Source of the DNA: Opitutales bacterium
Lineage (GTDB): Bacteria; Verrucomicrobiota; Verrucomicrobiia; Opitutales; PNEW01
Direction of reading: 5' to 3'
Assembly (NCBI GenBank): GCA_965219535.1
Contig: CBDCNV010000002.1
Span: 1,470,001 to 1,502,000 of the forward strand
DNA length: 32,000 nucleotides
Below, one piece after another: positions 189 through 31,655 of the stretch. Under the pieces are notes generated by a model. That model was not told the DNA's origin. It saw nothing but the letters and a program-made list of their open reading frames with translations, and ran no database searches. The position numbers and the translations under genes are program-made. Every line of letters begins with the position of its first letter. Position 1 is the stretch's first letter.

Positions 189-216
189 GTCTAAAGTCGA
201 AGGTCCAAAGTCGAAA
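189..216 (+). repeat. GTCNAAR heptamer array (4 units), 22 nt after the stop of the upstream partial CDS
   Basis: GTCTAAA GTCGAAG GTCCAAA GTCGAAA. Confidence 0.85.
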
Positions 217-311
217 GCCGAAGAAGAGGGATAGCCACAAAAGGCACAAAAGGCGCAAAGAAGAGTTTTGAACCGCGGATATCGCAGATATGCGCGGATG
301 TTGATTTAGAT

Positions 312-733: not shown

Positions 734-1480
734 ATGAATCAGATCGAATTACCTCAAAGTGAAAAATTTCATTTATTTCTCCTTGCTGGCCAGTCAAACA
801 TGGCGGGCAGGGGCTTGCTTGAGGAAGAGGATACTAATCCTCACCCGCGGGTCCTGACAATAACGAGAGATGGAGATTGGGTTCCGGCAGTGGATCCTAT
901 CCACTTCGATAAGCCGAATAAGGGAGTTTGCCTTGGCAGAACATTCGGCATTGAGGTTGCAGAACAGGATCCGGATATCGTGGTCGGCCTCATCCCCGCT
1001 GCCTGTGGCGGCTCTCCCATTTCTACCTGGCAGCCCGGTATGTATTTTAAGGCGACGGAAAGTCACCCCTACGACGACGCCATCCAAAGAACGAAAAGAG
1101 CGATGGAGGATGGCGAGTTAAAAGCCATTCTCTGGCATCAGGGAGAGACCGATGCACGGGAGCCAGATCTCTCCACAATTTATGAAAAAAAACTGCGCCG
1201 ATTAATTGTGCGATTCAGAGACGACCTCAACAGCCCGAATCTGCCCTTCATCATCGGTCAAATGGGCCAATTTCTGGGTAGCGAGTTTGATCGCGACGGA
1301 CTCGTCAATGAAGCCCACGTTAAGATAGCAAAAGAAGATGACAACTCCACCTTCGTCCCCTCCGATGGTCTGGGCTGCCTAAGCGACAACGTCCATTTCG
1401 ACGCCAAAGCATTACGCGAGTTCGGACATCGGTACGCGGAGGTGTATTTGCGTATACGCAAATACGTGTCTAAAGTCTAA
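734..1480 (+). CDS. SASA/DUF303-type carbohydrate esterase (sialate O-acetylesterase-like, SGNH-related)
   Basis: 248-aa ORF. The N-terminal LAGQSNMAGRG motif is characteristic of the sialic-acid 9-O-acetylesterase (SASA) family, with WHQGE downstream. The TAA stop lies inside a GTCNAAR heptamer array. Confidence 0.8.
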   Translation: MNQIELPQSEKFHLFLLAGQSNMAGRGLLEEEDTNPHPRVLTITRDGDWVPAVDPIHFDKPNKGVCLGRTFGIEVAEQDPDIVVGLIPAACGGSPISTWQPGMYFKATESHPYDDAIQRTKRAMEDGELKAILWHQGETDAREPDLSTIYEKKLRRLIVRFRDDLNSPNLPFIIGQMGQFLGSEFDRDGLVNEAHVKIAKEDDNSTFVPSDGLGCLSDNVHFDAKALREFGHRYAEVYLRIRKYVSKV

Positions 1481-1495
1481 GGTCCAAAGTCGAAA
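1468..1495 (+). repeat. GTCNAAR heptamer array (4 units) containing the esterase stop codon
   Basis: GTCTAAA GTCTAAG GTCCAAA GTCGAAA. The TAA at 1478-1480 lies inside unit 2. Confidence 0.85.
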
Positions 1496-1720
1496 GCGAA
1501 GAGCGCTCTCGCGCGGGGAGAAAGAGGGAATAGCCACAGCATTAAATGAAGATTTATGAATGATGAATGCAGAATGGAGAGGGATAGCCACCAGCCGTCG
1601 CCAAGGCTATGGCCGGCAAGCAAGAGGCACAGAAGGTACAAGAGGGATAAGAATAAATTTAACCACGAATGAACACGAATCGACACGAATAAAAGAGAGA
1701 AGAAATAGTAGTAACAAAGT

Positions 1721-3641: not shown

Positions 3642-3756
3642 AGAGGGATAGCCACAAAAGGCACAAGAGGCACAAAAAAAGAAATTTTGAACTTAGGAAA
3701 TATAGAGTTTTTCAACCGCGGATAACACGGATGTACGCGGATGTGGTTTTTGAGGA

Positions 3757-3784
3757 GTCTAAAGTCGCAGGTCGAAAGTCGAAA
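3757..3784 (+). repeat. GTCNAAR heptamer array in the left flank of core C
   Basis: GTCTAAA GTCGCAG GTCGAAA GTCGAAA. Equivalent arrays lie at 26004-26031 and 31435-31462 in the left flanks of cores H and I. Confidence 0.85.
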
Positions 3785-3807
3785 GCGGGAAAATGCAAAA
3801 TCTTATT

Positions 3808-5410: not shown

Positions 5411-5678
5411 ATCTTTTTTTCCGAACTTTCTGTCCTTCCTATATAAAATCTTTCTTTTCTTTTTGGAAGATGTCGCTTCGCTCGGTAGTGCCTCTTGTGG
5501 CTAATTAATCTTTGCTTTAAATTATATCCGCGTTCATTGGTTGATGTCGTCCCGCTGCTGCGCGACTCGGTAGTGTTATCCGCGGTCAGCCGTCACCCGT
5601 TGGGCTATGGCTGACAGGTACTGCGCGTCCCTCCAGAAAACGCACCGCTTATACACTTTTCCCATTATCGCATTTCCC

Positions 5679-5706
5679 TTTGGACTTTCGACCTTCGACT
5701 TTTGAC
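5679..5706 (-). repeat. GTCNAAR array in the sense orientation of the minus-strand ABC fusion gene, 17 nt past its stop
   Basis: The reverse complement reads GTCAAAA GTCGAAG GTCGAAA GTCCAAA. Confidence 0.85.
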
Positions 5707-8999: not shown

Positions 9000-9007
9000 T
9001 GGGGTTA

Positions 9008-9039
9008 GTCAAAAGGTCAAAAGGTCGAAAAGTCAAAAG
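9008..9039 (+). repeat. GTCAAAAR octamer array (4 units)
   Basis: GTCAAAAG GTCAAAAG GTCGAAAA GTCAAAAG, preceded by TAG. No plus-strand gene ends here. Confidence 0.85.
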
Positions 9040-9185
9040 GTTGAAGACGTGGAGAAAGAATAGCCACCAGCCGTCGCCAAGGCTATGGCCGGCAGGCAAG
9101 AGGCACAAGAAAGAATTGCACCGCAGAGGCGTAGAAGGCGAGGGAGTAATCAGTGAACAGTGAACGGTGAACAGTGAACAGTTGG

Positions 9186-9329: not shown

Positions 9330-9333
9330 CCCA

Positions 9334-10029: not shown

Positions 10030-10057
10030 GTCAAAGGTCGAAGGTCTAAAGTCGAAG
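10030..10057 (+). repeat. GTCNAAR heptamer array starting 1 nt after the HAD stop codon
   Basis: GTCAAAG GTCGAAG GTCTAAA GTCGAAG. Confidence 0.85.
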
Positions 10058-10162
10058 GGGGGGAGGAGCGCTGATGCGCGTGTTAGGTTTTAAGTTTTAG
10101 GTGTTAGGTGAAGAGATAGCCTCACTATCATTTGGGGATTTGTAATATCGGTTATACTTTTT

Positions 10163-11441: not shown

Positions 11442-11553
11442 TTTTGGATAGCCACAAAAAGCACAAAAGGCACAAGAGGGACAAGAATAAATTTAACCAC
11501 GAATGAACACGAATCGACACGAATAAAAGAGAGAAGAAATAGTAGTAACAAAT

Positions 11554-11723
11554 CAGGTAAAACACGATGCGTTATCTCAATAGCTCAGCATAGCTGAGCG
11601 CCAGATGTTTCCTACGCGTTTTTTTAAATTGTGATTTAAAAAAAGCGCTAGGGATCACCCGTAGTCAATCCACCCGCAAATGCGGGATGGATGACATTGA
11701 GATAAAGCATCGTGTTTCACCTG
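11554..11723 (-). repeat. Core element copy E (interior inverted relative to A-D and G-I)
   Basis: Hairpin order is reversed: GCTCAGC-ATA-GCTGAGC first, then the AT-rich hairpin, then GTCAATCCACCCGCA-AAT-GCGGGATGGATGAC. The flanks are in the same orientation as those of forward copies. Confidence 0.9.
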
Positions 11724-11900
11724 ATATTTCTTCCCGATCTTCCCGACTTTCCTGTAAAATTCTTTCTTTTCTTTTTTGTGTCTTCTGTGCCTTATGTGGC
11801 CAACTCTTCTTCTCCTTGCCCTGAGTTTAGTCGAAGAATGCGGTTCAAAATTTTAACCTTGAACCGTGTACCTTGAACCCTGAACCTTGCCGAAGGCAAA

Positions 11901-12734
11901 ATGAATATTACAGTATGCAAAACGGAAATGGAGTTCCCGGGGGAGGTGGGGGAGTTGAGGGAATCGAATGATCTTTTGGAGGATATGGATGGGCTCCATA
12001 AGCGGATCGAGGAGGATGGCTGTTTGCTTTTGCGCGATTTTCTCAATCGTGAGGATGTGCTCGCGGCAAAAGAAACATTCCGCAGGAAAATTGAGACAAC
12101 GAATGCGGGTAGTATTGAATTGAATTCTGAGCTTGTTGCCCATGAAGCAGAATTTGTAAAAGTATTTGAATCTCCCAGGCTCTTTGACTTTTTTGAAAAG
12201 TTTTTTGGAGAACCGGCGTTAACTTTCGATTTTAAATGGCTGCGACAAGTTACGCCCGGTAAATTCTCGGGACTGCACTTTGACAATGTCTATATGGGAC
12301 GGGGATCGGATCGTCTGCATACGGTCTGGGTGCCGATTGGTGATCTTACACCTGACCTCGGCACGCTGGTTCTCAATGTCGGTTCCCATAGTGAACGGAA
12401 GAAAAAGCTGATTGATACTTACGGGATGATGGATGTCGACCGCGACAAAGTAGCGGGCTGGTTTTCCCATGACCCGCGTGAGTACACGGAAAAATATGGC
12501 GGCCAGTGGCAGACCTCCAGATTCAAGGCGGGAGACATCGTCATCTTTACGATGTTTACGATGCACTGTTCGACGCTTAATCTCACCGACGGCGATCGCT
12601 ACAGCGGTGATATCCGTTTTCAACCCGCCAGTAATCCCGTCGATAATCGCTGGTACGGAAAAGACGCGCCCGGACATACGGCCGATGAAAATCAAAAATC
12701 AATGGAGGAGTTTAGGAGGGAATACGGAATTTAG
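11901..12734 (+). CDS. PhyH-family Fe(II)/2OG dioxygenase (third paralog-like member in the window)
   Basis: 277-aa ORF. DGCLLLRDFL N-terminus, an HxD in GLHFDNVY, NVGSHS, and a distal His in FTMHCS. Confidence 0.75.
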   Translation: MNITVCKTEMEFPGEVGELRESNDLLEDMDGLHKRIEEDGCLLLRDFLNREDVLAAKETFRRKIETTNAGSIELNSELVAHEAEFVKVFESPRLFDFFEKFFGEPALTFDFKWLRQVTPGKFSGLHFDNVYMGRGSDRLHTVWVPIGDLTPDLGTLVLNVGSHSERKKKLIDTYGMMDVDRDKVAGWFSHDPREYTEKYGGQWQTSRFKAGDIVIFTMFTMHCSTLNLTDGDRYSGDIRFQPASNPVDNRWYGKDAPGHTADENQKSMEEFRREYGI

Positions 12735-12747
12735 CTTGCTAAATTCC
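12726..12747 (+). other. 8-bp hairpin GGAATTTA-GCTTGC-TAAATTCC embedding the PhyH stop codon (TAG 12732-12734)
   Basis: Direct reading. No U-tract follows. Confidence 0.5.
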
Positions 12748-12749
12748 GT

Positions 12750-12781
12750 GTCAAAAGGTCAAAAAGTCAAAAAGTCAAAAT
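12750..12781 (+). repeat. GTCAAAAR octamer array (4 units), 16 nt after the PhyH stop
   Basis: GTCAAAAG GTCAAAAA GTCAAAAA GTCAAAAT. Confidence 0.85.
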
Positions 12782-12842
12782 GTGGGGGGAACTAGTAAAC
12801 AGCCGTCGTCGCTCTGCTATGACGTGCCAAGGTGAACAGTGT

Positions 12843-12886
12843 GGAGTTGCGGATTTATTATAATAGTGCGAACAATTCTTACCTGA
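12843..12886 (+). promoter_or_regulatory. Second copy of the TATAAT module (TATAAT at 12859-12864), upstream of the VOC gene at 12972
   Basis: GAGTTGCGGATTTATTATAATAGTGCGAACAATTCTTACCTGA, followed by degenerate CCTGAAC-type heptamers up to the ATG. Confidence 0.3.
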
Positions 12887-12971
12887 ACCCTGTACCGAGA
12901 GCGTAGCTCGACATCTTCCACCCTGAACCCTGAACCTTGAACCGTGAACGCTGAACCCGTATGGTGAATAT

Positions 12972-13328
12972 ATGAGGGAGTGGTATTCCAGACCGGTTTT
13001 TTTTGTCACGGATATGAAAAAGGCGTGTGACTTTTATTGTGAGGTCATGGGTTTTAAGGAAGCGTGGAGCTATGAGGATGAGGGGAAAAAGATAGTCGTG
13101 CAGATGACGCGTGGGAGTTGTGAAATCATCCTTAACGTGAATGCGAAACGCGCCGGGAATTCAAGACTGTTCATCGCGCTTGAGGTTGAAGAATTGAAAG
13201 TTTTGCAGAAAGAGATTGTTGAAAAATCGATAGAAACGAAAAATTTATTCTGGGGCTATCCCGTGATTGAGATTAAGGACCCGGATGGAAATGAGTTGTT
13301 GTTTCCGATAGAGGATAGGGAGCGCTAG
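12972..13328 (+). CDS. VOC superfamily protein (glyoxalase / bleomycin-resistance / dioxygenase fold)
   Basis: 118-aa ORF. FYCEVMGFKE near the N-terminus and IEIKDPDGNELLF near the C-terminus are classic VOC signatures. Confidence 0.8.
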   Translation: MREWYSRPVFFVTDMKKACDFYCEVMGFKEAWSYEDEGKKIVVQMTRGSCEIILNVNAKRAGNSRLFIALEVEELKVLQKEIVEKSIETKNLFWGYPVIEIKDPDGNELLFPIEDRER

Positions 13329-13443
13329 CGCGCCTCAAAAAGTCAAAAGGGGGGGACCAGTAAACAGTGAACAGTGAACAGTAAACAGTGGGAGCGCTGG
13401 GGCGCGCGTTAAGTTTTAGGTTGGACGATTCAGGATTCGATGT

Positions 13444-14887
13444 TTGTATTTTTCCCAATCCCAAATCCGCATTCCGACATCCGCAATTGAAATAACCGTG
13501 AACCGTGAACCCCGAACCTTGAACCCCAATATTATAATCATCTTTGCTGATGATTTGGGTTATGGGGACTTGGGTTGTTATGGATCGAAGGTGAATGTTA
13601 CGCCGCGGTTTGATCGGATGGCGGCGGAGGGGATGCGCTTCACTGATTTCTATGTTGCTTCACCGGTCTGTTCGCCATCGCGGGCTGCGTTGATGACTGG
13701 CTGTTATCCCAAGCGTATGGGTCTTGATTCGGGAACGGACTACGTGGTGTTGATGCCCGGGGACCCGATCGGCCTGGATGCTGAGAAATATACCCTTTCA
13801 CGGATGCTGAAGAATGCCGGTTACGCGACCAAGATCATAGGGAAGTGGCACCTTGGAGATCAGCCGGAGTTTCTTCCCGCGCGCCATGGATTTGACAGTT
13901 ATTTCGGCCTGCCCTACAGCAACGACATGTTACCGGATCACCCGAACAATGATAGTTATCATTTTCCGCCACTGCCCCTGATGAAAGATGAAGAAGTAAT
14001 GGAGGTAGACCCCAACCAGGCGTCATTAACGGATCGTTACACGGCTGAGGCCATCCGCTTCATCGAAGAGAACGCCGGGAACAATACTCCTTTCTTTCTC
14101 TACCTGCCCCACATGTACGTGCATATCCCTATTCATACCCCGATGAAGTACGACATAGCTTCAAAAAACGGAGTCTACGGCGCGGCGGTGGAGCACATGG
14201 ACGACAGCACGGGCTGTATTCTCGACACCCTGGAACGGATGGGTATCGATGAGAACACCCTCGTTATCTTCACTTCAGACAATGGATCGAGCTGCAGGGA
14301 AGGGGGGAGTAACACGCCTCTTCGTGGCACCAAGGGCACAACCTGGGAAGGCGGCATGCGCGAACCGTGCCTTATACGTTGGCCGGGAAAGATACCGGCC
14401 GGGTCAAGCTGTAATGAAATCACCACGACAATGGACCTGCTGCCAACGCTGACAAAACTTGCGAACGGGTTTATCCCGGACGATCACGTTATGGACGGGA
14501 AGGACATCTCTCCACTCATGCTGGGGAAAGACAGACGCCCGTAGTCCACATGCAGCCTTCTTCTATTATGGGACAGGAGACCACACCCTTCACGCGGTGC
14601 GCAACGGTAAGTGGAAGTTGCATCTGCTGCTCAATGAGCTCTATGACCTCGAGCGTGATATCGGTGAAGAACGAAACGTGTTCGTTGATCACCCCGAAAT
14701 AGTAGCGAAGCTTACAGCCCTGGCCGACGGTTGTCGAAAAGAACTGGGTGACGCCCACACGAATTCAGAAGGCAGTGGCTGCCAACCAGTAGGACACGTA
14801 AAGGACCCACAGACGCTCACATCATTAGATACGATGGATCCGATTATTCGCGCGATGTATGATTTGGATGACGCGCCAGGGCGCTAG
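13444..14887 (+). pseudogene. Formylglycine-dependent sulfatase (arylsulfatase family) interrupted by a 1-nt frameshift near 14527-14530
   Basis: IIIIFADDLGYGDLGCYGS plus the CSPSRAALMTG (CxPxR) motif lie in the 13444-14544 frame. The canonical C-terminus SPHAAFFYYGTG..AVRNGKWKLHL..LYDLERDIGEERNV continues in the +1 frame (14459-14887 ORF). The junction is at GGGGAAAG. No signal peptide is present, and the first ~25 codons are made of GTGAACC/CCTGAAC-type repeats. Confidence 0.75.
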
Positions 14888-14907
14888 CGTTGACATGCGT
14901 CAACGCT
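14886..14907 (+). other. 9-bp hairpin AGCGTTGAC-ATGC-GTCAACGCT overlapping the sulfatase stop codon
   Basis: Direct reading. TAG is at 14885-14887. Confidence 0.5.
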
Positions 14908-15086
14908 CGTCAAAAAGTCACCAGCCGTCGCCAAGGCTGTGGGCGTCAGGCAAAAAAGAAATTTACACCGCGGAGGTGGAGATTGAGAGTAGATAGTCAC
15001 TTTATCAAAGGGGTATCAGTGAAAAAAACCACGAATGAACACGAATAGGCACGAATAAAAGAGAGAAGAAATAGTAGTAACAAGAT

Positions 15087-15256
15087 CAGGTGAAACACGA
15101 TGCTTTATCTCAATAGCTCAGCATAGCTGAGCGCCAGATGTTTCCTACGCGTTTTTTTAAATTGTGATTTAAAAAAAGCGCTAGGGATCACCCGTAGTCA
15201 ATCCACCCGCAAATGCGGGATGGATGACATTGAGATAAAGCATCGTGTTTCACCTG
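15087..15256 (-). repeat. Core element copy F (interior inverted)
   Basis: The last ~142 nt are identical to copy E. The right flank CTTTCTTTCCGAACTTCCCGGCCTTCCTGTAAAAG matches the right flank of forward copy H. Confidence 0.9.
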
Positions 15257-15473
15257 ATCTTTCTTTCCGAACTTCCCGGCCTTCCTGTAAAAGTCTTTTT
15301 TGTGCTTTTGGAAGATCTAGCTTTGCTCTGGTAGTGACCAATTTATTTTATTTTTAAAATTACATTCGTGTTCATTCGTGGTCAATTATTTCGTATTTCC
15401 TTTATGAACTATTGACGTTTTAACCTTTTCACTCATCCATAACATAAACATAAAATTCAATTAGGAGAACCCT

Positions 15474-15836
15474 ATGTTAAAAAAAATAATTCCCAACGTA
15501 TTTTATGAGGATATTGAGGTGGGGCTTAGGCTGTTTGTGAAAACGTTAGGGTTTTCGGTGACCCATGAGGACCGTGAGGCGGAACAACCTTTGATTGTGG
15601 TGGAGAGGGATTCGGTGAAAGTGCATTTAGTAGAAAATGCTGAATATGCGGTGAAGGATCGTCCAGAAATACGCATCGAGACGGACGATATTGAAGCGGT
15701 CTATAAAGAGGTCGTGGCGAATAACAAAGATTACCTTCATCCCAATTCAAGTGGTCCCACTCTCCGGCCCTGGGGCTGTACTGAATTTGCACTTCTTGAT
15801 GAAACGAAAGTGTGTGTTATTATTCAGGAGTGGTAG
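15474..15836 (+). CDS. VOC superfamily protein (glyoxalase/bleomycin-resistance-like)
   Basis: 120-aa ORF with an AGGAG Shine-Dalgarno 8 nt upstream of the ATG. VFYEDIEVGLRLFVKTLGF is VOC-like at the N-terminus. Length and pattern fit a single VOC domain pair. Confidence 0.7.
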   Translation: MLKKIIPNVFYEDIEVGLRLFVKTLGFSVTHEDREAEQPLIVVERDSVKVHLVENAEYAVKDRPEIRIETDDIEAVYKEVVANNKDYLHPNSSGPTLRPWGCTEFALLDETKVCVIIQEW

Positions 15837-15855
15837 CGCGCCAGCACTGGCGCGC
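15836..15855 (+). other. 9-bp GC hairpin GCGCGCCAG-CA-CTGGCGCGC overlapping the last base of the VOC stop codon
   Basis: Direct reading. TAG is at 15834-15836. Confidence 0.5.
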
Positions 15856-16177
15856 GTCAAAAAGTCACCAGCCGTCGCCAAGGCTATGGCCGGCAGGAAA
15901 GGTCAAAAAGTCAAAAAAGGGGGGGAACCGGAAGGCCTGAGGGCCGGAAAACCAGAAAACCGGATGATTGGAGGACTAATTCCGACTTCAGCGGTTGCAG
16001 ATCGGTCATTGCTTCGGTTAAGGTGTGACCATCCTTTGCCTACGTTGTCACTAGGCTACGGACGGCAGGCAAGTTGCAGATTTATCCTAACGGTGTAATC
16101 GGTTCTTTCCTGAACCCTGAACCCTGAACCCTGTACCGAGAGCGTAGCTCGACATCTTCCACCCTGAACCCAAACGC

Positions 16178-16205
16178 TTTCGACTTTGGACCTTAGACTT
16201 TCGAC
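16178..16205 (-). repeat. GTCNAAR array abutting the stop of the minus-strand membrane-protein gene, in that gene's sense orientation
   Basis: The reverse complement reads TAA GTCGAAA GTCTAAG GTCCAAA GTCGAAA. Confidence 0.85.
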
Positions 16206-16757: not shown

Positions 16758-16789
16758 GTCAAAAAGTCAAAAGGTCAAAAAGTCAAAAA
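16758..16789 (+). repeat. GTCAAAAR octamer array (4 units)
   Basis: Preceded by TAA. Followed by GGGGG, a GCGC hairpin word and TTAGGTKT octamers. Confidence 0.85.
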
Positions 16790-16852
16790 GGGGGATGCGC
16801 GGTAGCGCGTGTTAAGTTTTAAGTGTTAGGTTTTAGGTAATTGACTTAAAAC

Positions 16853-18227
16853 GGTACAACCAGGACATGGTTTACAGATTTAGATCAAGACATGGTTTAC
16901 ACTTTGTGAGGGATGCTGAACGGTAATCGGGTTATATAGTTAAGTTAATGTTATGCGGTTTTAGAGGTTTGGCTGGCATTGTTGGGGCCGCAAGCGGCCC
17001 CAATGAAAGCAGCCGTTGAAAGGTCAATCTGACCGATTCTGAGAGTGGCAAAGTAAACATCGAAGTGTACCGTGTCTAGTGGTTTTAGTCCAACGCTCCA
17101 ACCGGCGAGGGCGGTGGAGATAGGAATCTGGAAGCCATCGAGTTTGATAGACCCGCTTTTTGAGACCCGGCGAGTCATCAAATCATAGCTGATATCGGCA
17201 GGAGTGCCACCGTAAGGATGAGAGCTGTGCTGATAGATTTCAGAGGGCGTGCTCATGGCAAGAGCCGCATGGGGGCGTTCTTCATTGAAGGTCTTGCGCC
17301 ACAGATCGAAGGCCACCTGTTGGGTGCGAAGATCGTCCTGGGCATGTTTTTGCAACTCCTCTTTGATATCGCGATGGAGACGCTCATGGGCACCGTTATC
17401 CTGGGGTTTACCCGGACGTCCACGCTCGAGATTGATCCCTAAGGCCAGCCACCAGGCCGCCAGTTTGCTCAGGCCCAGGACCGCATTGGCACTGGCAAAG
17501 GGACTGCCGTTGTCGCTGCGGATGCAAGCGGGAAGTCCATAGCGTTCAAAGAGTTTTGTGAAGCATTCACGCACCGCTTCGCTACGGGCTGAACTGAGCA
17601 CCCGCACCTCTAATACATAGCGGCTCCATTCATCCCGTACCGTCAAAGGTTCACAACGGTTGCCATCAACGGTGTGCCACCACCCTTTGAAGTCTACGCT
17701 CCACACTTCGTTACAGCCACTGGCCTTGACGCTGCGGTAAAGGCGTCCGCTTTTTTGAGCGCTTCTGCGCCGACGCTTTTGCACCAGTCCCGCACGTTCC
17801 AAGACCCGTTTCACGCTCGAGTCTGAGGGGGCCTTCCCGTAACGCCTCTGGTAAAGCTCGCGGATCTTGTAGGGGCCCCACGTCGGGTGATGATGCTTGA
17901 GTTTGATCAGCGTACATACTACTGATTCGGATAGTTCCTGAACACTTCCATGCGGTCGGCGTGAGCGCTCGTGCAACCCCTCCATCCCTTCGCTCAGGAA
18001 GCGCTTCTTCCATTTATACCCTGTCGGTCGGCTGATCCCGTAGTCTTCACACAGCTCGTTCATCTTTACTCCCGGTTGCATCGATTCCAGGGCGAATTGG
18101 TATCTTTGGTCCATTTTATTTGTTTCCTTCCATGACATCATACCCCTTACTTAGCATCCTTCTTTCTTTGGCAATCTGTAAAGGATGTCCTGAACCTTTT
18201 GTGTAAAGAATGTCTTGAACCTATACC
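16853..18227 (-). mobile_element. IS481-family insertion sequence (about 1.37 kb) with terminal inverted repeats that each carry two tandem CARGACATNNTTTACA sites
   Basis: Left end: CAGGACATGGTTTACA at 16861-16876 and CAAGACATGGTTTACA at 16886-16901. Right end, reverse complement: CAGGACATCCTTTACA within 18175-18192 and CAAGACATTCTTTACA within 18200-18217. GGTACA/GGTATA lies at the outer tips. The exact ends and the target duplication are not resolved. Confidence 0.75.
16951..18141 (-). CDS. IS481-family DDE transposase (HTH plus rve integrase core)
   Basis: 396-aa intact ORF. It has an N-terminal HTH (ISRPTGYKWKKRF). The DDE region comprises WSVDFKGWW, IRSDNGSPFAS and PGKPQDNGAHERLHRDIKEE. 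Confidence 0.9.
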   Translation of the reverse strand: MMSWKETNKMDQRYQFALESMQPGVKMNELCEDYGISRPTGYKWKKRFLSEGMEGLHERSRRPHGSVQELSESVVCTLIKLKHHHPTWGPYKIRELYQRRYGKAPSDSSVKRVLERAGLVQKRRRRSAQKSGRLYRSVKASGCNEVWSVDFKGWWHTVDGNRCEPLTVRDEWSRYVLEVRVLSSARSEAVRECFTKLFERYGLPACIRSDNGSPFASANAVLGLSKLAAWWLALGINLERGRPGKPQDNGAHERLHRDIKEELQKHAQDDLRTQQVAFDLWRKTFNEERPHAALAMSTPSEIYQHSSHPYGGTPADISYDLMTRRVSKSGSIKLDGFQIPISTALAGWSVGLKPLDTVHFDVYFATLRIGQIDLSTAAFIGAACGPNNASQTSKTA

Positions 18228-18302: not shown

Positions 18303-18330
18303 ATTCGACTTTGGACCTTAGACTTTCGAC
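18303..18330 (-). repeat. GTCNAAR array just past the desaturase stop hairpin, in that gene's sense orientation
   Basis: The reverse complement reads GTCGAAA GTCTAAG GTCCAAA GTCGAAT. Confidence 0.85.
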
Positions 18331-19467: not shown

Positions 19468-19502
19468 TATTTAATTTTATAATCAGGACGATGATTCTAT
19501 AA

Positions 19503-19534
19503 GTCAAAAAGTCAAAATGTCAAAAGGTCAAAAA
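19503..19534 (+). repeat. GTCAAAAR octamer array, identical to 22011-22042
   Basis: GTCAAAAAGTCAAAATGTCAAAAGGTCAAAAA. Confidence 0.85.
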
Positions 19535-19808
19535 GTTAATCGATTGCGGATATCGGATTTTTGGGAGAAAGAGGGATAGCCACTACCGAGCGAAGCGAGA
19601 TCTTCCAAAGGCACAAGAAGCACAAGAGGCTCAAGAAAGAAATATGGAACTCAGGGACTCAGGAATCAAAGATTAAATAACCGTGGAGGCGCAGAGGTGG
19701 AGATTGAGAATAGATAGTCACTTTCTCAAAGGGGTATCAGTGAAAAAAACCACTAATGGACAAGAATTGGCACGAATAAAAGAGAGAGGAAATAGTAGTA
19801 ACAAAAGT

Positions 19809-20327: not shown

Positions 20328-22010
20328 TTGGCGGAATTGCTTATCAAGGATTGTAATATGACTTATTCAGCAAGAAATGTGATGGTAATTTCTATACTCG
20401 TGGTGCAATCTATTAGTTTCGTGGTTGCACAAGAGGAAAGACCTGATTTTTGGAAAGCTGAAGGAGCGCTGGGGGTCGTCGCTACGGGTGACGAGTCATC
20501 GGCTGATGCTGGTATTGGGATACTAAAAGATGGAGGGAATGCTGTCGATGCCGCCGTCTCCAGCTTGCTCGTTCTGACGGTGACCGACACGGGAAATTTT
20601 TGCTTTGGCGGTGAAATTCCGATCATCGTTTATGATGCGAAACGCGGTGTCGTGGAAGTTCTGAGTGGTCAAGGAGCGGCTCCCCGGTTGGCAACTTTGA
20701 AATATTTTAAGAAGAAGGGTGAAGGTTCCGTTGATGGACCGGCTGTCCCGGGCGCCCTGGACGCCTGTTTGACGGCATTGGAAAGATATGGCACGCTAAC
20801 TTTTGCCGAGGTAGCAAATCCGGCTTTGAGCATCTTAGATCAGCATAAGGAGCCCTGGCATGCTAACATGGCTAAAACTATTCGCCGGCTCATTGAAGCT
20901 GAAAAAGGTTCACCGGATGATCGACAGCGTGGACTAAGGCTTGTTGCCGATTATTTCTACCGTGGCCCTATCGCCCGAGAGTTAGATACTTGGAGTCGAG
21001 AGCATGATGAACTATTGCGCTATTCCGATTTAGCGACCCATGTGACCCGCATTGAGGATCCCGTCTTAGTAAAGTACCGTGGATACACCGTTTACAAATG
21101 CGGTCCATGGACCCAGGGACCCTGCCTTTTGCAGGGGTTGCGTCTACTGGAAGGTTTCGACCTAAAGGCCTTGGGGCATAACAGTCCGGATTACATTCAT
21201 GTTGTTATCGAGGCGATGAAGTTGGCATTAGCTGATCGGGATACTTATTACGCCGACCCTCTATTTGAAGACGTTCCGTTGAAAGCGTTGTTATCCGAGA
21301 ACTATGCCAATATTCGCCAATCGCTAATCGATATAAAGCGTGCCTCATTGGTTCATCGTCCCGGGGATCCTCAGGCGGGCAAAGCTTTGTTGAAAAAAAA
21401 CCAAACCCTACGCGGTAAAAGTGGTCAGGTCAAAGATACCACAACCTGTCTTGCCGCAGATCGATGGGGTAATGTCGTAGCGGCCACCCCTAGCGGTTGG
21501 GGTGGAAGGCTTGCCGGTGACACTGGTATCGTGCTCGGCACGCGACTCAAAAGTTTCAATGTATGGAAAAATCATCCGAATGTCATTGAGCCGGGTAAAC
21601 GCCCGCGAATCACCTTAACGCCGACATTAGTAATGAAGGATGATAAACCAGTGCTTGCTGTGAGTGTCGCTGGGGGTGACAAACAGGACCTGGCGACGAT
21701 GAATTTACTCTTGAATTATATCGAGTTTGGATTAACGCCTGCCGAGTCCATGATCACTCCACGTTTTGGGACCGACCACCTCGTTGGTTCTTTTCAGCAA
21801 CCCCCACCAAAACTAGGAAGTTTATACCTTTATTCTGCTGTAGACGAACAAACCATGGATGCATTGAAGACCCGCGGTCACCTTATCGAGATCGTGGATC
21901 CTGAGGTCTTACCGTATGGCCGGTCTTGTGTTTTGAGTTTCGAACCAAAGTCAGGGCTTATGCAGGCGGCGGGCGATCCCACCGCGGATCACCATGCGAG
22001 GGGGTTTTAA
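20328..22010 (+). CDS. ggt: Gamma-glutamyltransferase (Ntn-hydrolase, GGT family), secreted
   Basis: 560-aa ORF from TTG 20328. The in-frame ATG at 20358 gives a cleaner signal peptide (MTYSARNVMVISILVVQSISFVVAQ). GGNAVDAAV N-terminal motif; autoprocessing/nucleophile region KDTTTCLAADRWGNVVAATPSGW. Confidence 0.85.
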   Translation: MAELLIKDCNMTYSARNVMVISILVVQSISFVVAQEERPDFWKAEGALGVVATGDESSADAGIGILKDGGNAVDAAVSSLLVLTVTDTGNFCFGGEIPIIVYDAKRGVVEVLSGQGAAPRLATLKYFKKKGEGSVDGPAVPGALDACLTALERYGTLTFAEVANPALSILDQHKEPWHANMAKTIRRLIEAEKGSPDDRQRGLRLVADYFYRGPIARELDTWSREHDELLRYSDLATHVTRIEDPVLVKYRGYTVYKCGPWTQGPCLLQGLRLLEGFDLKALGHNSPDYIHVVIEAMKLALADRDTYYADPLFEDVPLKALLSENYANIRQSLIDIKRASLVHRPGDPQAGKALLKKNQTLRGKSGQVKDTTTCLAADRWGNVVAATPSGWGGRLAGDTGIVLGTRLKSFNVWKNHPNVIEPGKRPRITLTPTLVMKDDKPVLAVSVAGGDKQDLATMNLLLNYIEFGLTPAESMITPRFGTDHLVGSFQQPPPKLGSLYLYSAVDEQTMDALKTRGHLIEIVDPEVLPYGRSCVLSFEPKSGLMQAAGDPTADHHARGF

Positions 22011-22042
22011 GTCAAAAAGTCAAAATGTCAAAAGGTCAAAAA
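22011..22042 (+). repeat. GTCAAAAR octamer array starting 1 nt after the GGT stop codon
   Basis: TAA followed by GTCAAAAAGTCAAAATGTCAAAAGGTCAAAAA. Confidence 0.85.
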
Positions 22043-22179
22043 GTGGAAATCCTGAAAGCCAGAAGTCATGAAAGCCAGAAAGCCGGATTGATGCACGATC
22101 CAGGATGCAAGATAATCCTACGGTATCCGCTTTTTCGCTTTCACGCATTATAGGATGTCGGGCTACACCCTCGGTACGC

Positions 22180-23328
22180 TTATTCGCGAATGCCAAAGAG
22201 CTTGGCGGTGTTGAGGCCGAGGATGAGATCTTTTTCGTGCGGGGTGAGGAAATCGCAGTGGAGTTGTATGAACTCCAGGGACTGTCGATAGGTGCACCAG
22301 GCACTCATGCTGTGAGGGCTGTCCGTTCCCCAGATGAGTTTCTCCGCGCCGACCGCATCGCGCAGATCCTTGAGTTGCTTCTGTCCCTCGGGGTAGGGAT
22401 AGACCGGCCACTTTGCTGGAAAAAGAATCTCGGCAAGACTGTTCGGTCGTTTTAGTACCTCGATGAGTTCGTCGGGGATACCGATGTCGTGAATAATCGC
22501 GGCGGGGACAAGACCGTGAGTGATGATTGACGGAATATTGGGATGCTTTTGCGTCCATTCGTCCAACTCGGTAACCCTTCGCAAGAACATCTCGATCCGA
22601 TTATGGGTGCGATCATCGAGGAACCAGAATACCGGTATTTCCAGCTGCTGGACGAGATTCCAAAGAGGATCAAACTTCGGATCGTTGAGCGAGACATCCA
22701 ACTGCATCACCGAGAGGGGCTCGACACTGAAATAAATCCCCTTGTTTCCGTATTCGCTTATTCCCCGCTCCAGTAATTTTAAGCGTTCGGTGCTGTCGGC
22801 TTCCGGTTCCCAGATTTGTGCCAGTCCGATGAAGCGACCGGGGAACTTTTTTCTCGCATCGGCAAAGTATTCATTGAGGTCGCCGTAGACATGATCGCAT
22901 TGCAGGACACCCATGTCTACACCGACCATGTTCATCTCCGCGACCATGCGTTCCGGTGGCGCGTCATTGTCTGCTTGCGTGGGCGGGAAGAGTTGCATGG
23001 TGTAATCTACACCATCGACCGTGATGTCCACCTGACCGAATTGTGTAAGACGGAAATTTACGTCGGGCATGTCGTCGAGATTATTGGAATCAAAGCGCAG
23101 GAATTGTTCATCGGTGTGTGAGCCATCGTCCTTGCGCCAGAAATTATTGCATTCGCGTGCATGGTACTGCCAGAGTTTTGCACGCAAGGCGGGATCGATT
23201 CCCTCTTGCTGCGAACCGGGGGGCGGAAAGATATGGTAGTGCGCGTCGATGATCGGGCAGCGCTTGCGGTCTTTCGAGTCACTGTCGATCACCCAGCCGC
23301 CGCCGATGAAGGTCATTTTTTTATTCAT
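22180..23328 (-). CDS. Metal-dependent amidohydrolase (TIM-barrel, amidohydrolase_2-like)
   Basis: 382-aa ORF. IIDAHYHIF (HxH metal site) near the N-terminus, a distal IWGTDSPH aspartate motif, and an ITHG histidine. Confidence 0.75.
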   Translation of the reverse strand: MNKKMTFIGGGWVIDSDSKDRKRCPIIDAHYHIFPPPGSQQEGIDPALRAKLWQYHARECNNFWRKDDGSHTDEQFLRFDSNNLDDMPDVNFRLTQFGQVDITVDGVDYTMQLFPPTQADNDAPPERMVAEMNMVGVDMGVLQCDHVYGDLNEYFADARKKFPGRFIGLAQIWEPEADSTERLKLLERGISEYGNKGIYFSVEPLSVMQLDVSLNDPKFDPLWNLVQQLEIPVFWFLDDRTHNRIEMFLRRVTELDEWTQKHPNIPSIITHGLVPAAIIHDIGIPDELIEVLKRPNSLAEILFPAKWPVYPYPEGQKQLKDLRDAVGAEKLIWGTDSPHSMSAWCTYRQSLEFIQLHCDFLTPHEKDLILGLNTAKLFGIRE

Positions 23329-23358
23329 CTTCTCGATAGTTATCGAGAAGATGAATAA
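23321..23358. promoter_or_regulatory. Perfect 18-bp inverted repeat (2-nt spacer) enclosing the amidohydrolase start codon
   Basis: TTATTCATCTTCTCGATA at 23321-23338 and TATCGAGAAGATGAATAA at 23341-23358. The ATG (reverse complement CAT, 23326-23328) lies in the left arm. Confidence 0.6.
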
Positions 23359-23361
23359 AAA

Positions 23362-23385
23362 GTCAAAAGGTCAAAAAGTCAAAAG
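23362..23385 (+). repeat. GTCAAAAR octamer array (3 units)
   Basis: GTCAAAAG GTCAAAAA GTCAAAAG, then a G-run. Confidence 0.85.
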
Positions 23386-25869: not shown

Positions 25870-26054
25870 ATTTTAACCGCGGATAACACGGATGAACGCC
25901 GATAAAATAAATAGTGAAGATTGTTAGCCACAAAAGGCACAAGAGGCACAAGAAAGAAATTTGCACCGCAGAGGCTCAGAGGCGCAGAGGTGGAATTGGA
26001 GGAGTCTAAAGTCGGAGGTCGAAAGTCGAAAGTTGGAAAAAGCAAAATATTGTT

Positions 26055-26225
26055 CAGTTGAAACACGGTGCTTGATCGTCAATGTCATCCTTCCCGCAGA
26101 TGCGGGAGGATTGACTACGGCTGATCCCTAGCGCTTTTTTTAAATAATGATTTAAAAAAACGCGTAGGAAACATCCGACACTCAGCGATGCTGAGTTATT
26201 GAGATCAAGCACCGTGTTTCAACTG
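26055..26225 (+). repeat. Core element copy H (forward), 256 nt upstream of the paralog 1 start codon
   Basis: CAGTTGAAACACGGTGCTTGATCGTCAAT ... ATTGAGATCAAGCACCGTGTTTCAACTG. First hairpin: GTCATCCTTCCCGCA-GA-TGCGGGAGGATTGAC. Confidence 0.9.
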
Positions 26226-28627: not shown

Positions 28628-28634
28628 ACTATAG

Positions 28635-28666
28635 GTCAAAAAGTCAAAAGGTCAAAAAGTCAAAAA
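28635..28666 (+). repeat. GTCAAAAR octamer array (4 units), 7 nt from the paralog 2 -35 box
   Basis: GTCAAAAA GTCAAAAG GTCAAAAA GTCAAAAA. On the minus strand this reads as TTGAC every 8 nt. Confidence 0.85.
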
Positions 28667-28842
28667 GGGAAGAGCGGTGCAATGTCGGATTGCAGATGTC
28701 GGAATGTAAGATGTCGAGCTTAGCTTTCGGTAGCGGATTGATCTGGAATGGCAGGTTATCAAACTTCTCTCTTGATAACAGATTGGTAATGGATTGCCGC
28801 GCTGCGCTCGCAATGACAAAAAGGGGGGGAATTCAGTGGGAA

Positions 28843-28926: not shown

Positions 28927-28970
28927 AGAGCAGTGACACCTAACACATAATAGGCATTAGGTCTCCTACA

Positions 28971-28994
28971 TTTTGACTTTTTGACCTTTTTGAC
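28971..28994 (-). repeat. GTCAAAAR array immediately after the paralog 3 stop codon, in that gene's sense orientation
   Basis: The reverse complement reads TAG G GTCAAAAAG GTCAAAAA GTCAAAA. Confidence 0.85.
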
Positions 28995-28995
28995 C

Positions 28996-31299: not shown

Positions 31300-31485
31300 A
31301 TTTTATCCGCGGATAACGCGGATGGGAAATAGAGGAGTCGAAAGTCGAAGATCGATCAGGGAATAGCCACAAAAAGCACAAAAGGCACAAAACCGAAATT
31401 TGCACCGCAGAGGCGCAGAGGTGGAATTGGAGGAGTCTAAAGTCTAAGGTCGAAAGTCGAAAGTGGGAAAAAGCAAAATGTTGTT

Positions 31486-31655
31486 CAGGTGAAACACGGT
31501 GCATGATCTCAATGTCATCCATCCCGCAGATGCGGGAGGATTGACAATGGCTATTCCTAACGCGTTTTTTAAAATCATGATTTTTAAAAACGCGTAGGAA
31601 ACAGCCGACACTCAGCTGTGCTGAGTTATTGCGATCAAGCACCGTGTTTCACCTG
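31486..31655 (+). repeat. Core element copy I (forward), 256 nt upstream of the paralog 3 start codon
   Basis: Same architecture, embedded in an upstream region homologous to 25800-26054. Confidence 0.9.

What the first reader, a model, noticed from the sequence alone, without database searches (positions are those of the whole stretch)
22008..22042. GTCAAAAR / GTCNAAR arrays sit at or within about 25 nt of stop codons in the sense orientation of the gene they follow
By my count, 12 of about 19 gene 3' ends in the window are followed by one of these arrays in the orientation of the terminating gene. These are the plus-strand genes ending at 167, 1480 (stop inside the array), 10029, 12734, 13328, 14887, 15836 and 22010, and the minus-strand genes ending at 5724, 16206, 18343 and 28996. 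Strand-consistent placement on both strands argues for a function or an insertion preference tied to transcript 3' ends, such as termination, 3'-end processing, mRNA stability or a protein landing pad. Random repeat spread would not produce it. Five further arrays (9008, 16758, 19503, 23362, 28635) follow no current gene, yet each is immediately preceded by TAA or TAG, so they may mark ghost 3' ends. On the opposite strand the octamer array reads TTGAC every 8 nt, and one array lies 7 nt from the -35 box of paralog 2.
Basis: seen in the sequence. Interest (0 to 1): 0.6.

Follow-up and report, generated by a model that had tools for sequence, protein, structure and literature searches.

The report
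Polar octamer repeats at gene edges
Short GTCAAAAR repeat arrays in this uncultured Opitutales bacterium sit hard against both ends of genes, always with the GTC end facing the gene, so they mark coding-sequence edges rather than transcript 3' ends; their function is still unproven.

Summary
The window has 19 arrays of at least 2 units, against 0.02 in shuffles. Twelve gene 3' ends are followed by an array in sense orientation (9 solid, 3 vestigial).

The five "orphan" arrays lie 8-81 nt from START codons of minus-strand genes. In 17 blocks of two related Opitutales MAGs, 26 arrays follow stops (mostly 0-25 nt) and 25 precede true starts (cluster at 7-12 nt). Over all Opitutales loci, 61 arrays have the GTC end toward the coding sequence and 0-1 the reverse (p ~3e-17). 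Stop edges (23/80) and start edges (19/80) carry them equally.

The focal array (22008-22044, including the GGT stop TAA) is an exact 37-nt copy of 19500-19536. It is absent from seven sister genomes, which have other modules starting inside the stop codon.

Similar arrays follow stops of real genes in Phycisphaerae and precede starts in Planctomycetaceae and Bacteroidales MAGs.

Best reading (about 0.35): a copy-and-paste module at coding-sequence edges, acting on the transcript as an unstructured A-rich trailer or U-rich leader, and as a 20-27 bp closing stem when both arms are co-transcribed. A functionless repeat terminus is nearly as likely. A 3'-end-only or Rho role is poorly supported.

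The parts
22008..22044 (+). Focal array: TAA (the GGT stop codon) followed by GTCAAAAA GTCAAAAT GTCAAAAG GTCAAAAA GT.
   Evidence: It is an exact 37-nt copy of 19500-19536. It is present only in the window and L139; seven sister genomes have other modules here.
19500..19536 (+). Four-unit array 35 nt from the START of the minus-strand fatty-acid desaturase. It is the source or twin of the focal array.
   Evidence: It is conserved in all 8 sister loci although the 35-nt spacer has diverged. It supplies the TTGACA of the best promoter-like hit in the scanned 20 kb.
189..223 (+). Five-unit heptamer array (GTCTAAA GTCGAAG GTCCAAA GTCGAAA GCCGAAG), 21 nt after the stop of the ORF that ends at 167.
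1468..1496 (+). Heptamer array that contains the stop codon (TAA, 1478-1480) of the SASA esterase gene.
   Evidence: Pfam hit.
5678..5706 (-). Mixed 7/8-nt array 17 nt after the stop of the minus-strand SBP5-permease gene.
9008..9045 (+). Four-unit octamer array 8 nt from the GTG start of the minus-strand SBP5-permease gene, in a divergent intergenic region.
10030..10058 (+). Heptamer array starting 0 nt after the HAD hydrolase stop. It is followed by a G-run, a GC hairpin and a U-rich GTKTTAR array.
   Evidence: fold.
12750..12781 (+). Four-unit octamer array 15 nt after the PhyH stop.
   Evidence: The orthologous array in L116 has 6 units.
13334..13349 (+). Vestigial array (CTCAAAAA GTCAAAAG) after the glyoxalase stop.
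14909..14920 (+). A 1.5-unit array after the sulfatase stop, cut after GTCA by the hairpin module at 14921-14950.
15856..15918 (+). Array after the Glyox7 stop, split by the hairpin module at 15868-15897. It has 1.5 units before the insert and 2 after it.
16177..16205 (-). Heptamer array starting 0 nt after the stop of minus-strand hyp156.
   Evidence: It is conserved in L116, L134 and L139, and replaced by a hairpin plus U-rich module in L135 and L136.
16758..16789 (+). Four-unit octamer array 81 nt from the START of minus-strand hyp156. It is followed by GGGGG, a GC hairpin and a GTKTTAR array.
18303..18330 (-). Heptamer array 12 nt after the stop of the minus-strand fatty-acid desaturase. 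It is near-identical to the array at 16177-16205.
23362..23385 (+). Three-unit octamer array 33 nt from the START of the minus-strand amidohydrolase, directly after a 21-bp palindrome.
28635..28666 (+). Four-unit octamer array 47 nt from the START of minus-strand Ig7b and 7 nt from its TTGACG -35 box.
28970..28995 (-). Octamer array 0-10 nt after the stop of minus-strand Ig7c.
3756..3785 (+). Internal heptamer array (AGTCGAA type) in the left arm of a large palindromic element, not at a gene edge. Similar arrays lie at 26003-26033, 31337-31350 and 31434-31464.
   Evidence: classed as 'far'.

Best explanation
The arrays are a dispersed, copy-and-paste repeat module. Each unit is GTC plus 4-5 mostly A bases, the period is 7 or 8 nt, and an array is usually 2-4 units long. 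They form the outermost layer of the repeat-mosaic intergenic regions of an uncultured Opitutales (Verrucomicrobiota) lineage.

The rule is geometric: the GTC end faces the nearest coding sequence, whichever end of the gene that is. After a stop codon (0-25 nt) the mRNA strand reads (GUCAAAAR)n. Before a start codon the mRNA strand reads the complement (YUUUUGAC)n. That distance is 7-12 nt in the sister MAGs and 8-81 nt in the window.

I think they most likely act on the transcript. They would give a structure-free A-rich trailer and U-rich leader exactly at the ORF boundaries, in a genome that rarely uses Shine-Dalgarno sequences and whose intergenic regions are full of strong palindromes. 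When both arms lie on one read-through transcript, they pair into a 20-27 bp stem that closes off the intergenic region. That stem could insulate neighbouring genes, be cut by an RNase III-type enzyme, or stop read-through.

Shown: placement, polarity, copy behaviour, conservation and pairing potential. Inferred: that the arrays are transcribed, and any effect on translation, termination or decay.
For: - Polarity is absolute: 61 arrays point inward and 0-1 outward, p ~3e-17.
- Registration with codons is tight. Stop distances are mostly 0-17 nt, and start distances cluster at 7-12 nt (16 of 32).
- The starts are genuine. MutS_I profile position 1 aligns at residue 7, PhyH position 1 at residues 10 and 18, and Peptidase_M19 position 7 at residue 10.
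- SD-like motifs are rare in these genomes: 14 of 99 genes without an upstream array and 1 of 18 with one.
- As RNA the arrays are predicted to be unpaired, with z-scores of 0.5-1.75 in four of six sense-strand folds.
- Paired arrays close the whole intergenic region with 20-27 bp stems, z -4.6 to -8.4.
- Units of 7 and 8 nt are mixed within one array. This argues against recognition on rigid double-stranded DNA.
- Arrays are retained at orthologous edges while their neighbours turn over. The desaturase-start array is identical in L135 and L136 although the adjacent 35-nt spacer differs at about a third of positions. Three gene ends carry 8-mer arrays in one genome and 7-mer arrays in another.
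- The same design occurs in another phylum. Arrays lie 2-13 nt after the stops of 8 of 8 Pfam-confirmed Phycisphaerae genes. They lie 9-35 nt before real starts in Planctomycetaceae and Bacteroidales MAGs.
- Start-adjacent arrays are more uniform: 14 of 21 have 4 units, and 52% have a TA flank.
Against: - There are no expression data, so transcription of the arrays is assumed.
- The model needs two different roles for the two orientations, which is less economical than a single DNA-level cause.
- Equal frequency at starts and stops and independence of the two edges of an intergenic region (p = 0.16) or of a gene (p = 0.36) look more like geometry than function.
- Only 8 of 34 array-bearing intergenic regions have both arms, so the closing stem cannot be the general role.
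- An A-rich leader should also be unstructured, so 'lack of structure' alone does not explain the absolute polarity.
- The arrays behave like mobile DNA. There is an exact 37-nt copy that carries its own TAA. Breakpoints of homology between genomes fall at or inside arrays. TA flanks are enriched, 27% against 6.6%. In the window the arrays also show a strand bias toward the G-rich strand, regardless of gene strand.
Confidence: 0.35

Rival explanations
1. Selfish or neutral repeat terminus. The arrays are the terminal (TIR-like) ends of small mobile or recombining modules that fill the intergenic regions. They point inward simply because they are element ends. They abut coding sequences because everything up to the coding sequence is replaceable. 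They have no host function.
For: - Window 22008-22044 is an exact 37-nt copy of 19500-19536, and it is a lineage-specific gain.
- Near-identical 22-41-nt heptamer arrays sit at four gene ends.
- Homology between genomes of about 91% identity ends at the first base of the stop codon or inside arrays.
- The TA flank is enriched, and paired arrays form TAGTC...GACTA inverted repeats.
- Starts and stops are used equally, and the two edges are independent.
- A hairpin module inserts repeatedly at the same position inside arrays.
- An oriented intergenic unit sits 'backwards' between two minus-strand genes in L116.
- The window shows a strand bias toward the G-rich strand.
Against: - Random insertion cannot explain the narrow 7-12 nt distance to true start codons, or the 0-17 nt distance to stops.
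- The interiors between paired arrays are mostly unrelated, unlike a MITE family.
- No clean empty site with a target duplication was found.
- The same unit and geometry occur in Planctomycetota and Bacteroidota, with lineage-specific eighth bases. That suggests long persistence rather than a recent parasite.
- Arrays are conserved while adjacent spacers diverge.
- No associated transposase was identified.
Confidence: 0.3
2. One reading: a signal specific to transcript 3' ends, such as a Rho loading site, a termination or processing signal, or an mRNA stability element.
For: - Every stop-adjacent array is in sense orientation.
- In Phycisphaerae, arrays of 3-7 units (up to 13 units in a Planctomycetaceae MAG) begin 2-13 nt after the stops of ffh, hslV, nadK, rmuC and other genes, and there they are C>G.
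- At the same gene ends, sister genomes alternate between an array and a GC hairpin followed by a U-rich GTKTTAR array. This suggests the two are interchangeable 3' modules.
- One array-hairpin-U-rich composite scores as terminator-like, at 16795-16810.
Against: - About 45% of arrays in the related Opitutales MAG blocks, and 5-6 of about 19 in the window, abut start codons in antisense orientation.
- The UC spacing of 8 nt leaves a 6-nt linker. This is outside the (YC)N9-13 spacing taken as compatible with Rho's primary binding sites (PMC6144790).
- The window's units have G >= C.
- An array alone has no hairpin and no U-tract.
- Terminator-like sites in the region are no more frequent than in shuffles, 21 against 21.9.
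Confidence: 0.12
3. Double-stranded DNA landing pad. Tandem 7-8 bp iterons are bound cooperatively by a small DNA-binding protein, as MetJ binds metboxes or omega binds heptads, or by a nucleoid protein. The bound arrays mark or insulate gene boundaries.
For: - Tandem 7-8 bp units in direct and inverted arrangement are the known binding format of ribbon-helix-helix repressors (my own knowledge, not tested here).
- One factor would explain both gene ends.
- The mirror symmetry about genes or intergenic regions is natural for a DNA-level mark.
Against: - Units of 7 and 8 nt are mixed within single arrays, which changes the helical phase.
- Strict polarity relative to the coding sequence is not needed for a double-stranded DNA mark.
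- The arrays are dispersed at about a quarter of all gene edges rather than at particular operators.
- No candidate protein is known.
Confidence: 0.1
4. Outward-facing promoter parts. Read toward the gene, each unit contains TTGAC, so the arrays would donate -35 boxes (or upstream elements) to promoters firing into the adjacent DNA.
For: - The two best sigma-70-like hits in 20 kb use array TTGAC boxes. They are TTGACA-18-TAGAAT upstream of the desaturase (19523..19494) and TTGACC-16-TATAGT upstream of Ig7b (28655..28628).
- A -10-like hexamer directly outside the desaturase array is kept in sister genomes even where the spacer has diverged.
Against: - With 7-12 nt between array and ATG there is no room for a -10 box and a transcription start.
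- The hexamer after the array keeps TA but rarely has T at position 6.
- At stop codons such promoters would fire antisense into the gene.
- Promoter-like hits overall are not enriched, 26 against 20.9 +/- 4.9.
Confidence: 0.08

Closest known systems
REP / BIME elements of enterobacteria (repetitive extragenic palindromes and their mosaics)
   Same: Both are short, high-copy, strictly intergenic modules combined in mosaics with other motifs. Both often lie just after stop codons and inside transcripts, are species-specific, and are targets for other insertions.
   Different: A REP unit is itself an imperfect palindrome with a GTAG/CGTC tag (PMC3733652, abstract). These arrays are head-to-tail, non-palindromic and predicted to be unpaired. 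They also abut start codons, where REPs are rare.
TAACTGA heptamer direct repeats of Beggiatoaceae, Cyanobacteria and Bacteroidetes (MacGregor 2015, PMC4679880) and cyanobacterial STRR heptamers
   Same: Both are head-to-tail 7-nt-class repeats of 2 to many copies in intergenic regions, placed within a few nucleotides upstream of start codons. Both have a patchy cross-phylum distribution and no known mechanism. S1, Csp and CsrA-type binders were proposed for TAACTGA (abstract).
   Different: The unit here is different (GTC plus an A-run, 7 or 8 nt). It is placed at both gene ends with mirror polarity. The host phyla differ (Verrucomicrobiota and Planctomycetota, plus Bacteroidota). In this lineage the arrays are usually only 2-4 units long and are copied as fixed 22-37-nt blocks.
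MITEs with TA target duplication (Correia, RUP and IS630-mobilised elements)
   Same: Both can form inverted terminal copies that bracket a short intergenic insert. TA flanks are enriched here, and both are dispersed in many copies.
   Different: The interiors are mostly unrelated between copies, most arrays are solo, and no empty-site/filled-site pair with a duplication was found. The termini are tandem repeats.
A-tract / hairpin / U-tract bidirectional intrinsic terminators
   Same: A subset of arrays has the order A-rich array, G-run, short GC hairpin, U-rich GTKTTAR array. At the same gene end, sister genomes carry either the array or the hairpin plus U-rich part.
   Different: Most arrays lack the hairpin. 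The composite folds are not better than shuffles (z 0.5 to -1.4). Arrays 7-12 nt upstream of start codons cannot be ordinary terminators.
RNase III processing stems (phage T7 intercistronic sites, rRNA flanking stems)
   Same: Long-range complementary flanks form stems of 20 bp or more that enclose a whole segment of a transcript.
   Different: Only about a quarter of array-bearing intergenic regions have both arms. Cleavage was not tested.

Membership tests
REP/BIME | Dispersed, high-copy and strictly extragenic. | tested here: met
   The window has 19 arrays, none inside a Pfam-supported gene. There are many more in related MAG blocks.
REP/BIME | Each unit is an imperfect palindrome that forms its own stem-loop. 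| tested here: not met
   The units are head-to-tail direct repeats. The arrays are left unpaired in minimum-free-energy folds.
REP/BIME | A GTAG or CGTC tag at one end, and an associated RAYT transposase. | tested here: not met
   The units begin with GTC followed by A, G, T or C, and no GTAG/CGTC tag is present. Presence of a RAYT gene could not be checked, because only fragments of the genomes are held.
STRR / TAACTGA-type short tandem intergenic repeats | Head-to-tail repeats of a roughly 7-nt unit in intergenic DNA. | tested here: met
   Tandem Repeats Finder gives periods of 7 and 8 with 75-100% matches. All arrays are intergenic.
STRR / TAACTGA-type short tandem intergenic repeats | Placed within a few nt upstream of start codons (the BOGUAY genome, abstract of PMC4679880). 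| tested here: met
   Sixteen of 32 start-adjacent arrays end 7-12 nt before a true ATG or GTG. An equal number follow stop codons, which is not reported for TAACTGA.
MITE | Terminal inverted repeats at both ends of one insert. | tested here: inconclusive
   Eight of 34 array-bearing intergenic regions have an inverted pair. The pairing is not significant (p = 0.16).
MITE | Target-site duplication. | tested here: inconclusive
   TA lies directly outside 23 of 85 arrays, against 6.6% expected. TA is self-complementary, and no empty site is available to show a duplication.
MITE | A conserved internal sequence among copies. | tested here: not met
   The interiors of paired-array regions are mostly unrelated; only short shared sub-modules occur.
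Rho-dependent terminator (rut site) | Unstructured RNA with C>G. | tested here: inconclusive
   The arrays are unstructured. GTCAAAAG has 2 G and 1 C, and GTCAAAAA has 1 of each, so C>G is not met in the window. It is met for GTCAAAAC in Phycisphaerae.
Rho-dependent terminator (rut site) | YC dimers separated by linkers of 9-13 nt. | tested here: not met
   There is one UC per 7-8 nt, which leaves a linker of 5-6 nt, or 12-14 nt if every second unit is used. The criterion is from PMC6144790.
Rho-dependent terminator (rut site) | Termination depends on Rho. | not testable with these tools
   This needs in vitro transcription or bicyclomycin treatment.
Intrinsic terminator | A GC-rich hairpin directly followed by a U-tract. 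| tested here: not met
   The array alone has neither. Only a subset is followed by a GC hairpin plus a U-rich array, for example 16795-16810. Terminator-like sites are not enriched, 21 against 21.9.
CRISPR array | Repeats separated by unique spacers of similar length. | tested here: not met
   The units are contiguous, 7-8 nt long and without spacers.
Operator or iteron arrays of ribbon-helix-helix type (MetJ metboxes, omega heptads) | Tandem units of one fixed length in register. | tested here: not met
   Units of 7 and 8 nt are mixed within arrays, for example 5678-5706 and L042 5680-5701.
Operator or iteron arrays of ribbon-helix-helix type (MetJ metboxes, omega heptads) | A cognate binding protein and a defined regulon or partition locus. 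| not testable with these tools
   No candidate protein is known. The arrays lie at about 25% of all gene edges.

The most novel reading that the evidence does not exclude
The arrays are an old cis-element shared by Verrucomicrobiota and Planctomycetota, and partly by Bacteroidota, that marks ORF boundaries on mRNA. In this reading (YUUUUGAC)n is a Shine-Dalgarno-independent leader 7-12 nt before AUG. With three or more units it also places UGA in all three frames. (GUCAAAAR)n is a trailer that starts at the stop codon. Both would be read by the ribosome (protein S1) or by a dedicated single-strand RNA-binding factor, and the two would pair to insulate neighbouring cistrons.
Probability: 0.2. 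Interest if true: 0.8.

Novelty: new variant of a known kind. Interest (0 to 1): 0.55.

Why it matters
Gene expression signals in Verrucomicrobiota and Planctomycetota are almost unstudied, and these genomes use few Shine-Dalgarno sequences.

A repeat that registers to within a few nucleotides with both start and stop codons, with absolute polarity, and recurs in three phyla is one of two things. It may be a new class of UTR signal. Or it may be an unusually clear case of repeat DNA remodelling intergenic regions right up to, and even supplying, stop codons.

Either way it gives concrete, testable sequences for work on termination, translation initiation and gene insulation in these phyla. It also explains gene-order shuffling and indels between closely related strains.

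Tried and rejected
- **tRNA, tmRNA and Rfam families:** none found in the window.
- **CRISPR:** the units have no spacers.
- **Obligatory inverted pairs:** rejected. Pairing within an intergenic region is not significant (p = 0.16), and neither is pairing across a gene (p = 0.36).
- **'Ghost 3' ends':** rejected. The TAA is not conserved, and it is part of the copied unit.
- **Shine-Dalgarno replacement as a test:** uninformative, because the genome rarely uses SD anyway (14/99).
- **Rho rut spacing:** does not fit.
- **Promoter reading:** works for two or three window arrays, but is impossible for linkers of 7-12 nt.
- **Slippage as the origin of each array:** unlikely. Adjacent units usually differ in the eighth base (AGA and AGAA patterns), and identical 32-37-mers recur at different loci. 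None of the indels between the 99.9% identical strains is in these arrays.
- **Phage origin:** only 17 hits in the viral collection.
- **Literature:** no paper holds these array sequences, apart from an unrelated mammalian reporter construct.
- **Replication-strand bias:** clear in the window, but only a weak trend in independent OY829953.1 blocks.
- **Correction:** the seventh query (the MutS N-terminus) contained residues I had added from memory. That row is disregarded and was replaced, which used the real DNA.
Full report
**Source of the window.** The window is about 49% G+C and has no tRNA gene and no Rfam match. It encodes a SASA esterase, PhyH dioxygenases, a sulfatase, glyoxalases, a HAD hydrolase, a gamma-glutamyltranspeptidase (GGT), an amidohydrolase, a fatty-acid desaturase, an IS481-type transposase and three Ig_7 paralogs. 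Exact-protein look-ups place it in ENA metagenome assemblies. L001 and L140 are a 722-kb contig that is 99.9% identical to the window. The GGT cluster has members on multi-megabase contigs, one of them the 4.49-Mb chromosome OY829953.1, which is labelled 'MAG: Opitutales bacterium'. The host is therefore an uncultured Opitutales (Verrucomicrobiota) lineage.

**Check of the observation.** GTCAAAAR occurs 34 times against 3.5 expected. Arrays of two or more GTCNAAR/GTCAAAAN units number 19, against 0.02 in shuffles. Nine are solid. Three (13328, 14887, 15836) are one- to two-unit remnants, and two of those are cut after GTCA by a 30-34-nt hairpin module. The focal array begins directly after the GGT stop codon. 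The five 'orphan' arrays exist and are preceded by TAA or TAG. Each of them, however, lies 8-81 nt from the START codon of a minus-strand gene.

**The general rule.** A scan of species-representative genomes for three octamer units found many blocks of OY829953.1, a second Opitutales MAG, and many Phycisphaerae, Planctomycetaceae and Bacteroidales MAGs.
- In the 17 blocks from the two Opitutales MAGs, 26 arrays follow a same-strand stop and 25 lie next to an opposite-strand start. Over those blocks plus the window and L116, most stop distances are 0-17 nt (a few reach 25-65 nt), and 16 of 32 start distances fall at 7-12 nt.
- The starts are genuine. The MutS_I profile begins at residue 7 of the ORF whose ATG is 7 nt from an array, and PhyH, GCV_T and Peptidase_M19 profiles begin within the first 10-18 residues.
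- Over all Opitutales loci, 61 arrays have their GTC end toward the closer coding sequence. One has the reverse, and that case is an artefact of a spurious ORF.
- Stop edges (23/80) and start edges (19/80) carry arrays equally.
- The two edges of an intergenic region, and the two edges of a gene, carry arrays independently (p = 0.16 and p = 0.36).

The arrays are therefore coding-sequence-edge elements with mirror polarity, not 3'-end elements.

**Behaviour as DNA.**
- The focal site 22008-22044, including the TAA that serves as the GGT stop, is an exact 37-nt copy of 19500-19536, the array next to the desaturase start.
- At the GGT stop, only the window and L139 have the array. L116, L137 and L138 have TAG|CGCTGATGTGCG... 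. L134, L135 and L136 have TGA|GCGCTTGCGCGCGTGTTAG... . L141 has TGA|GCGCTGACGCGCG followed by a GTKTTAR array.
- In every case homology ends at the first base of the stop codon.
- Elsewhere, blocks of about 91% homology between the window and L116 begin or end at stop or start codons, or inside or just after arrays. Gene order is shuffled between the two.
- Orthologous arrays are kept at six gene edges with different unit numbers (4 against 6, and 4 against 3). At three other gene ends an 8-mer array in one genome corresponds to a 7-mer array in the other.
- The desaturase-start array is identical in L135 and L136 although the adjacent 35-nt spacer differs at about a third of positions.
- Between the 99.9% identical strains, the only indels in the aligned 4 kb (window 8904-12930) are unit changes in other, longer tandem repeats.
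- Adjacent units usually differ in the eighth base, and identical 32-37-mers recur. The arrays therefore spread as blocks rather than growing locally by slippage.
- TA lies directly outside 27% of arrays, against 6.6% expected, and outside 52% of start-adjacent arrays.

**Behaviour as RNA (predicted).** Sense-strand arrays are left unpaired, and the surrounding 86-106-nt segments fold no better than shuffles. Where both arms are present they form 20-27-bp stems that close the intergenic region, with z-scores of -4.6 to -8.4. A subset of arrays is followed by a G-run, a short GC hairpin and a U-rich GTKTTAR array. One of these scores as terminator-like, but terminator-like and promoter-like sites are not enriched overall. 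The two best promoter-like hits in the scanned 20 kb do use array TTGAC boxes, upstream of the desaturase and of Ig7b. A linker of 7-12 nt leaves no room for a promoter in the sister-genome cases. Shine-Dalgarno-like motifs are rare in these genomes.

**Other phyla.** In Phycisphaerae MAGs (54-66% G+C), arrays of 3-7 GTCRAAAN units start 2-13 nt after the stops of genes confirmed by Pfam: DUF58, NAD kinase, a Mu-like protein, ABC-2, RmuC, HslV, the SRP54 C-terminal domain and TetR. In Planctomycetaceae and Bacteroidales MAGs, arrays lie 9-35 nt upstream of real starts, including NuoL-type, FolD, a dTDP-glucose-dehydratase-type protein and an E2 acyltransferase. The eighth base is lineage-specific: C in Phycisphaerae, A or G in Opitutales, and often T in Bacteroidales. 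The viral collection has only 17 hits. No paper in the library holds these sequences.

**Interpretation.** Only translation, or selection on coding sequence, 'knows' both starts and stops.

I favour, at about 0.35, a transcript-level role. In this view the arrays are an A-rich trailer and a U-rich leader at the ORF boundaries of an SD-poor genome packed with palindromic repeats, with an insulating closing stem when both arms are co-transcribed.

A functionless repeat terminus is nearly as likely, at about 0.3. It explains the mirror polarity, the equal use of starts and stops, the copy behaviour and the breakpoints. It does not explain the tight distances or the persistence across phyla.

A purely 3'-end or Rho role (0.12) conflicts with the start-adjacent half of the arrays and with the YC spacing criterion of PMC6144790. 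A double-stranded DNA iteron role (0.1) conflicts with the mixing of 7- and 8-nt units in one array. A promoter role (0.08) fits only a few cases.

The nearest described things are REP/BIME mosaics and the TAACTGA/STRR heptamer repeats (PMC4679880). This is a new variant of that poorly understood kind.

Noticed in passing
window 312-480, 1721-1889, 3808-3979, 5240-5410, 11554-11723, 15087-15256, 19809-~19970, 26055-26225, 31486-31655: There are nine copies of a ~170-nt palindromic element, with arms CAGGTGAAACACGGTGCTTGATC and its reverse complement. They are flanked by inverted short-repeat arms (CACAARAGG x3 on one side, TGTGCCTCT on the other). The asymmetric interior is inverted in two copies (11554 and 15087) relative to the same left-hand flank. 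This could be an invertible segment or two insertion orientations. There is no Rfam match.
   Followed up: partly
window 9225-9331: (CCTGAAC)15 ends 2 nt before the ATG of the HAD hydrolase. The 99.9% identical strain L001 has 13 copies. ATCGAA (10163) and a 14-mer (10323) also differ by one unit. These repeats are hypervariable and could act as a phase-variation-like switch next to a start codon.
   Followed up: partly
window 12930-16123 compared with L001; window compared with L116: A 3.2-kb segment (glyoxalase, sulfatase, Glyox7) is absent from L001. Its ends lie in two copies of CCTGTACCGAGAGCGTAGCTCGACATCTTCCACCCTGAACCC. In L116 the glyoxalase and sulfatase genes are in swapped order. The intergenic repeats appear to mediate cassette-like gene shuffling.
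   Followed up: partly
window 14921-14950, 15868-15897, 9067-9096, 1591-1620, 554-583(-), 1918-1947(-); L116 ~4209: A 30-34-nt imperfect-palindrome module, CCAGCCGTCGCCAAGGCTATGGCCGGCAGG, always follows ...CA. It splits GTCAAAAR arrays at the same point (GTCA|CCAGCC) at three or more sites. This looks like a REP-like element with a target preference.
   Followed up: partly
window ~23318-23361: A perfect 21-bp palindrome spans the amidohydrolase start and mirrors ATGAATAAAAA. L141 has a different sequence at this position with the same palindromic design, which suggests a conserved hairpin at the start of this mRNA.
   Followed up: partly
window 13444-14887: The sulfatase is frameshifted: Pfam splits it into ORFs 13444-14544 and 14459-14887. 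Its ATG, present in L116, is replaced by AACCGTG-type heptamer repeats that run into the conserved NIIIIFADDLG motif. It is probably a pseudogene.
   Followed up: partly
window 16951-18141: The IS481-family transposase gene is present here and in L001/L140 (frameshifted there), L139 (fragment) and L134 (at another position). It is absent from L116, L135 and L136. It sits inside an intergenic repeat unit.
   Followed up: no
whole window: All CAGTRAA and CCTGAAC arrays, and 15 of 19 GTC-type arrays, are on the plus strand. That is the G-rich strand, and the GC skew is positive throughout, yet about 70% of coding bases are on the minus strand. Independent OY829953.1 blocks show only a weak trend in the same direction.
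   Followed up: partly
window 2771-2831: A 24-nt tandem repeat (GCTCAGGACAGGCCCTTCGACTAC x2.5) separates two epimerase-family ORFs (2132-2764 and 2838-3641). These may be halves of one disrupted gene.
   Followed up: no
window 28667-28830; L116 16380-16545 and 5640-5760: A conserved ~150-nt module follows some arrays. It reads ...GATGTCGAGCTTAGCTYTCGGTAGCGGATTG..GGCAGGTTRTCAAACTTCTCTCTTGATAAC..GCGCTGCGCTCGCAATGACAAAAG. Its nature is unknown.
   Followed up: no
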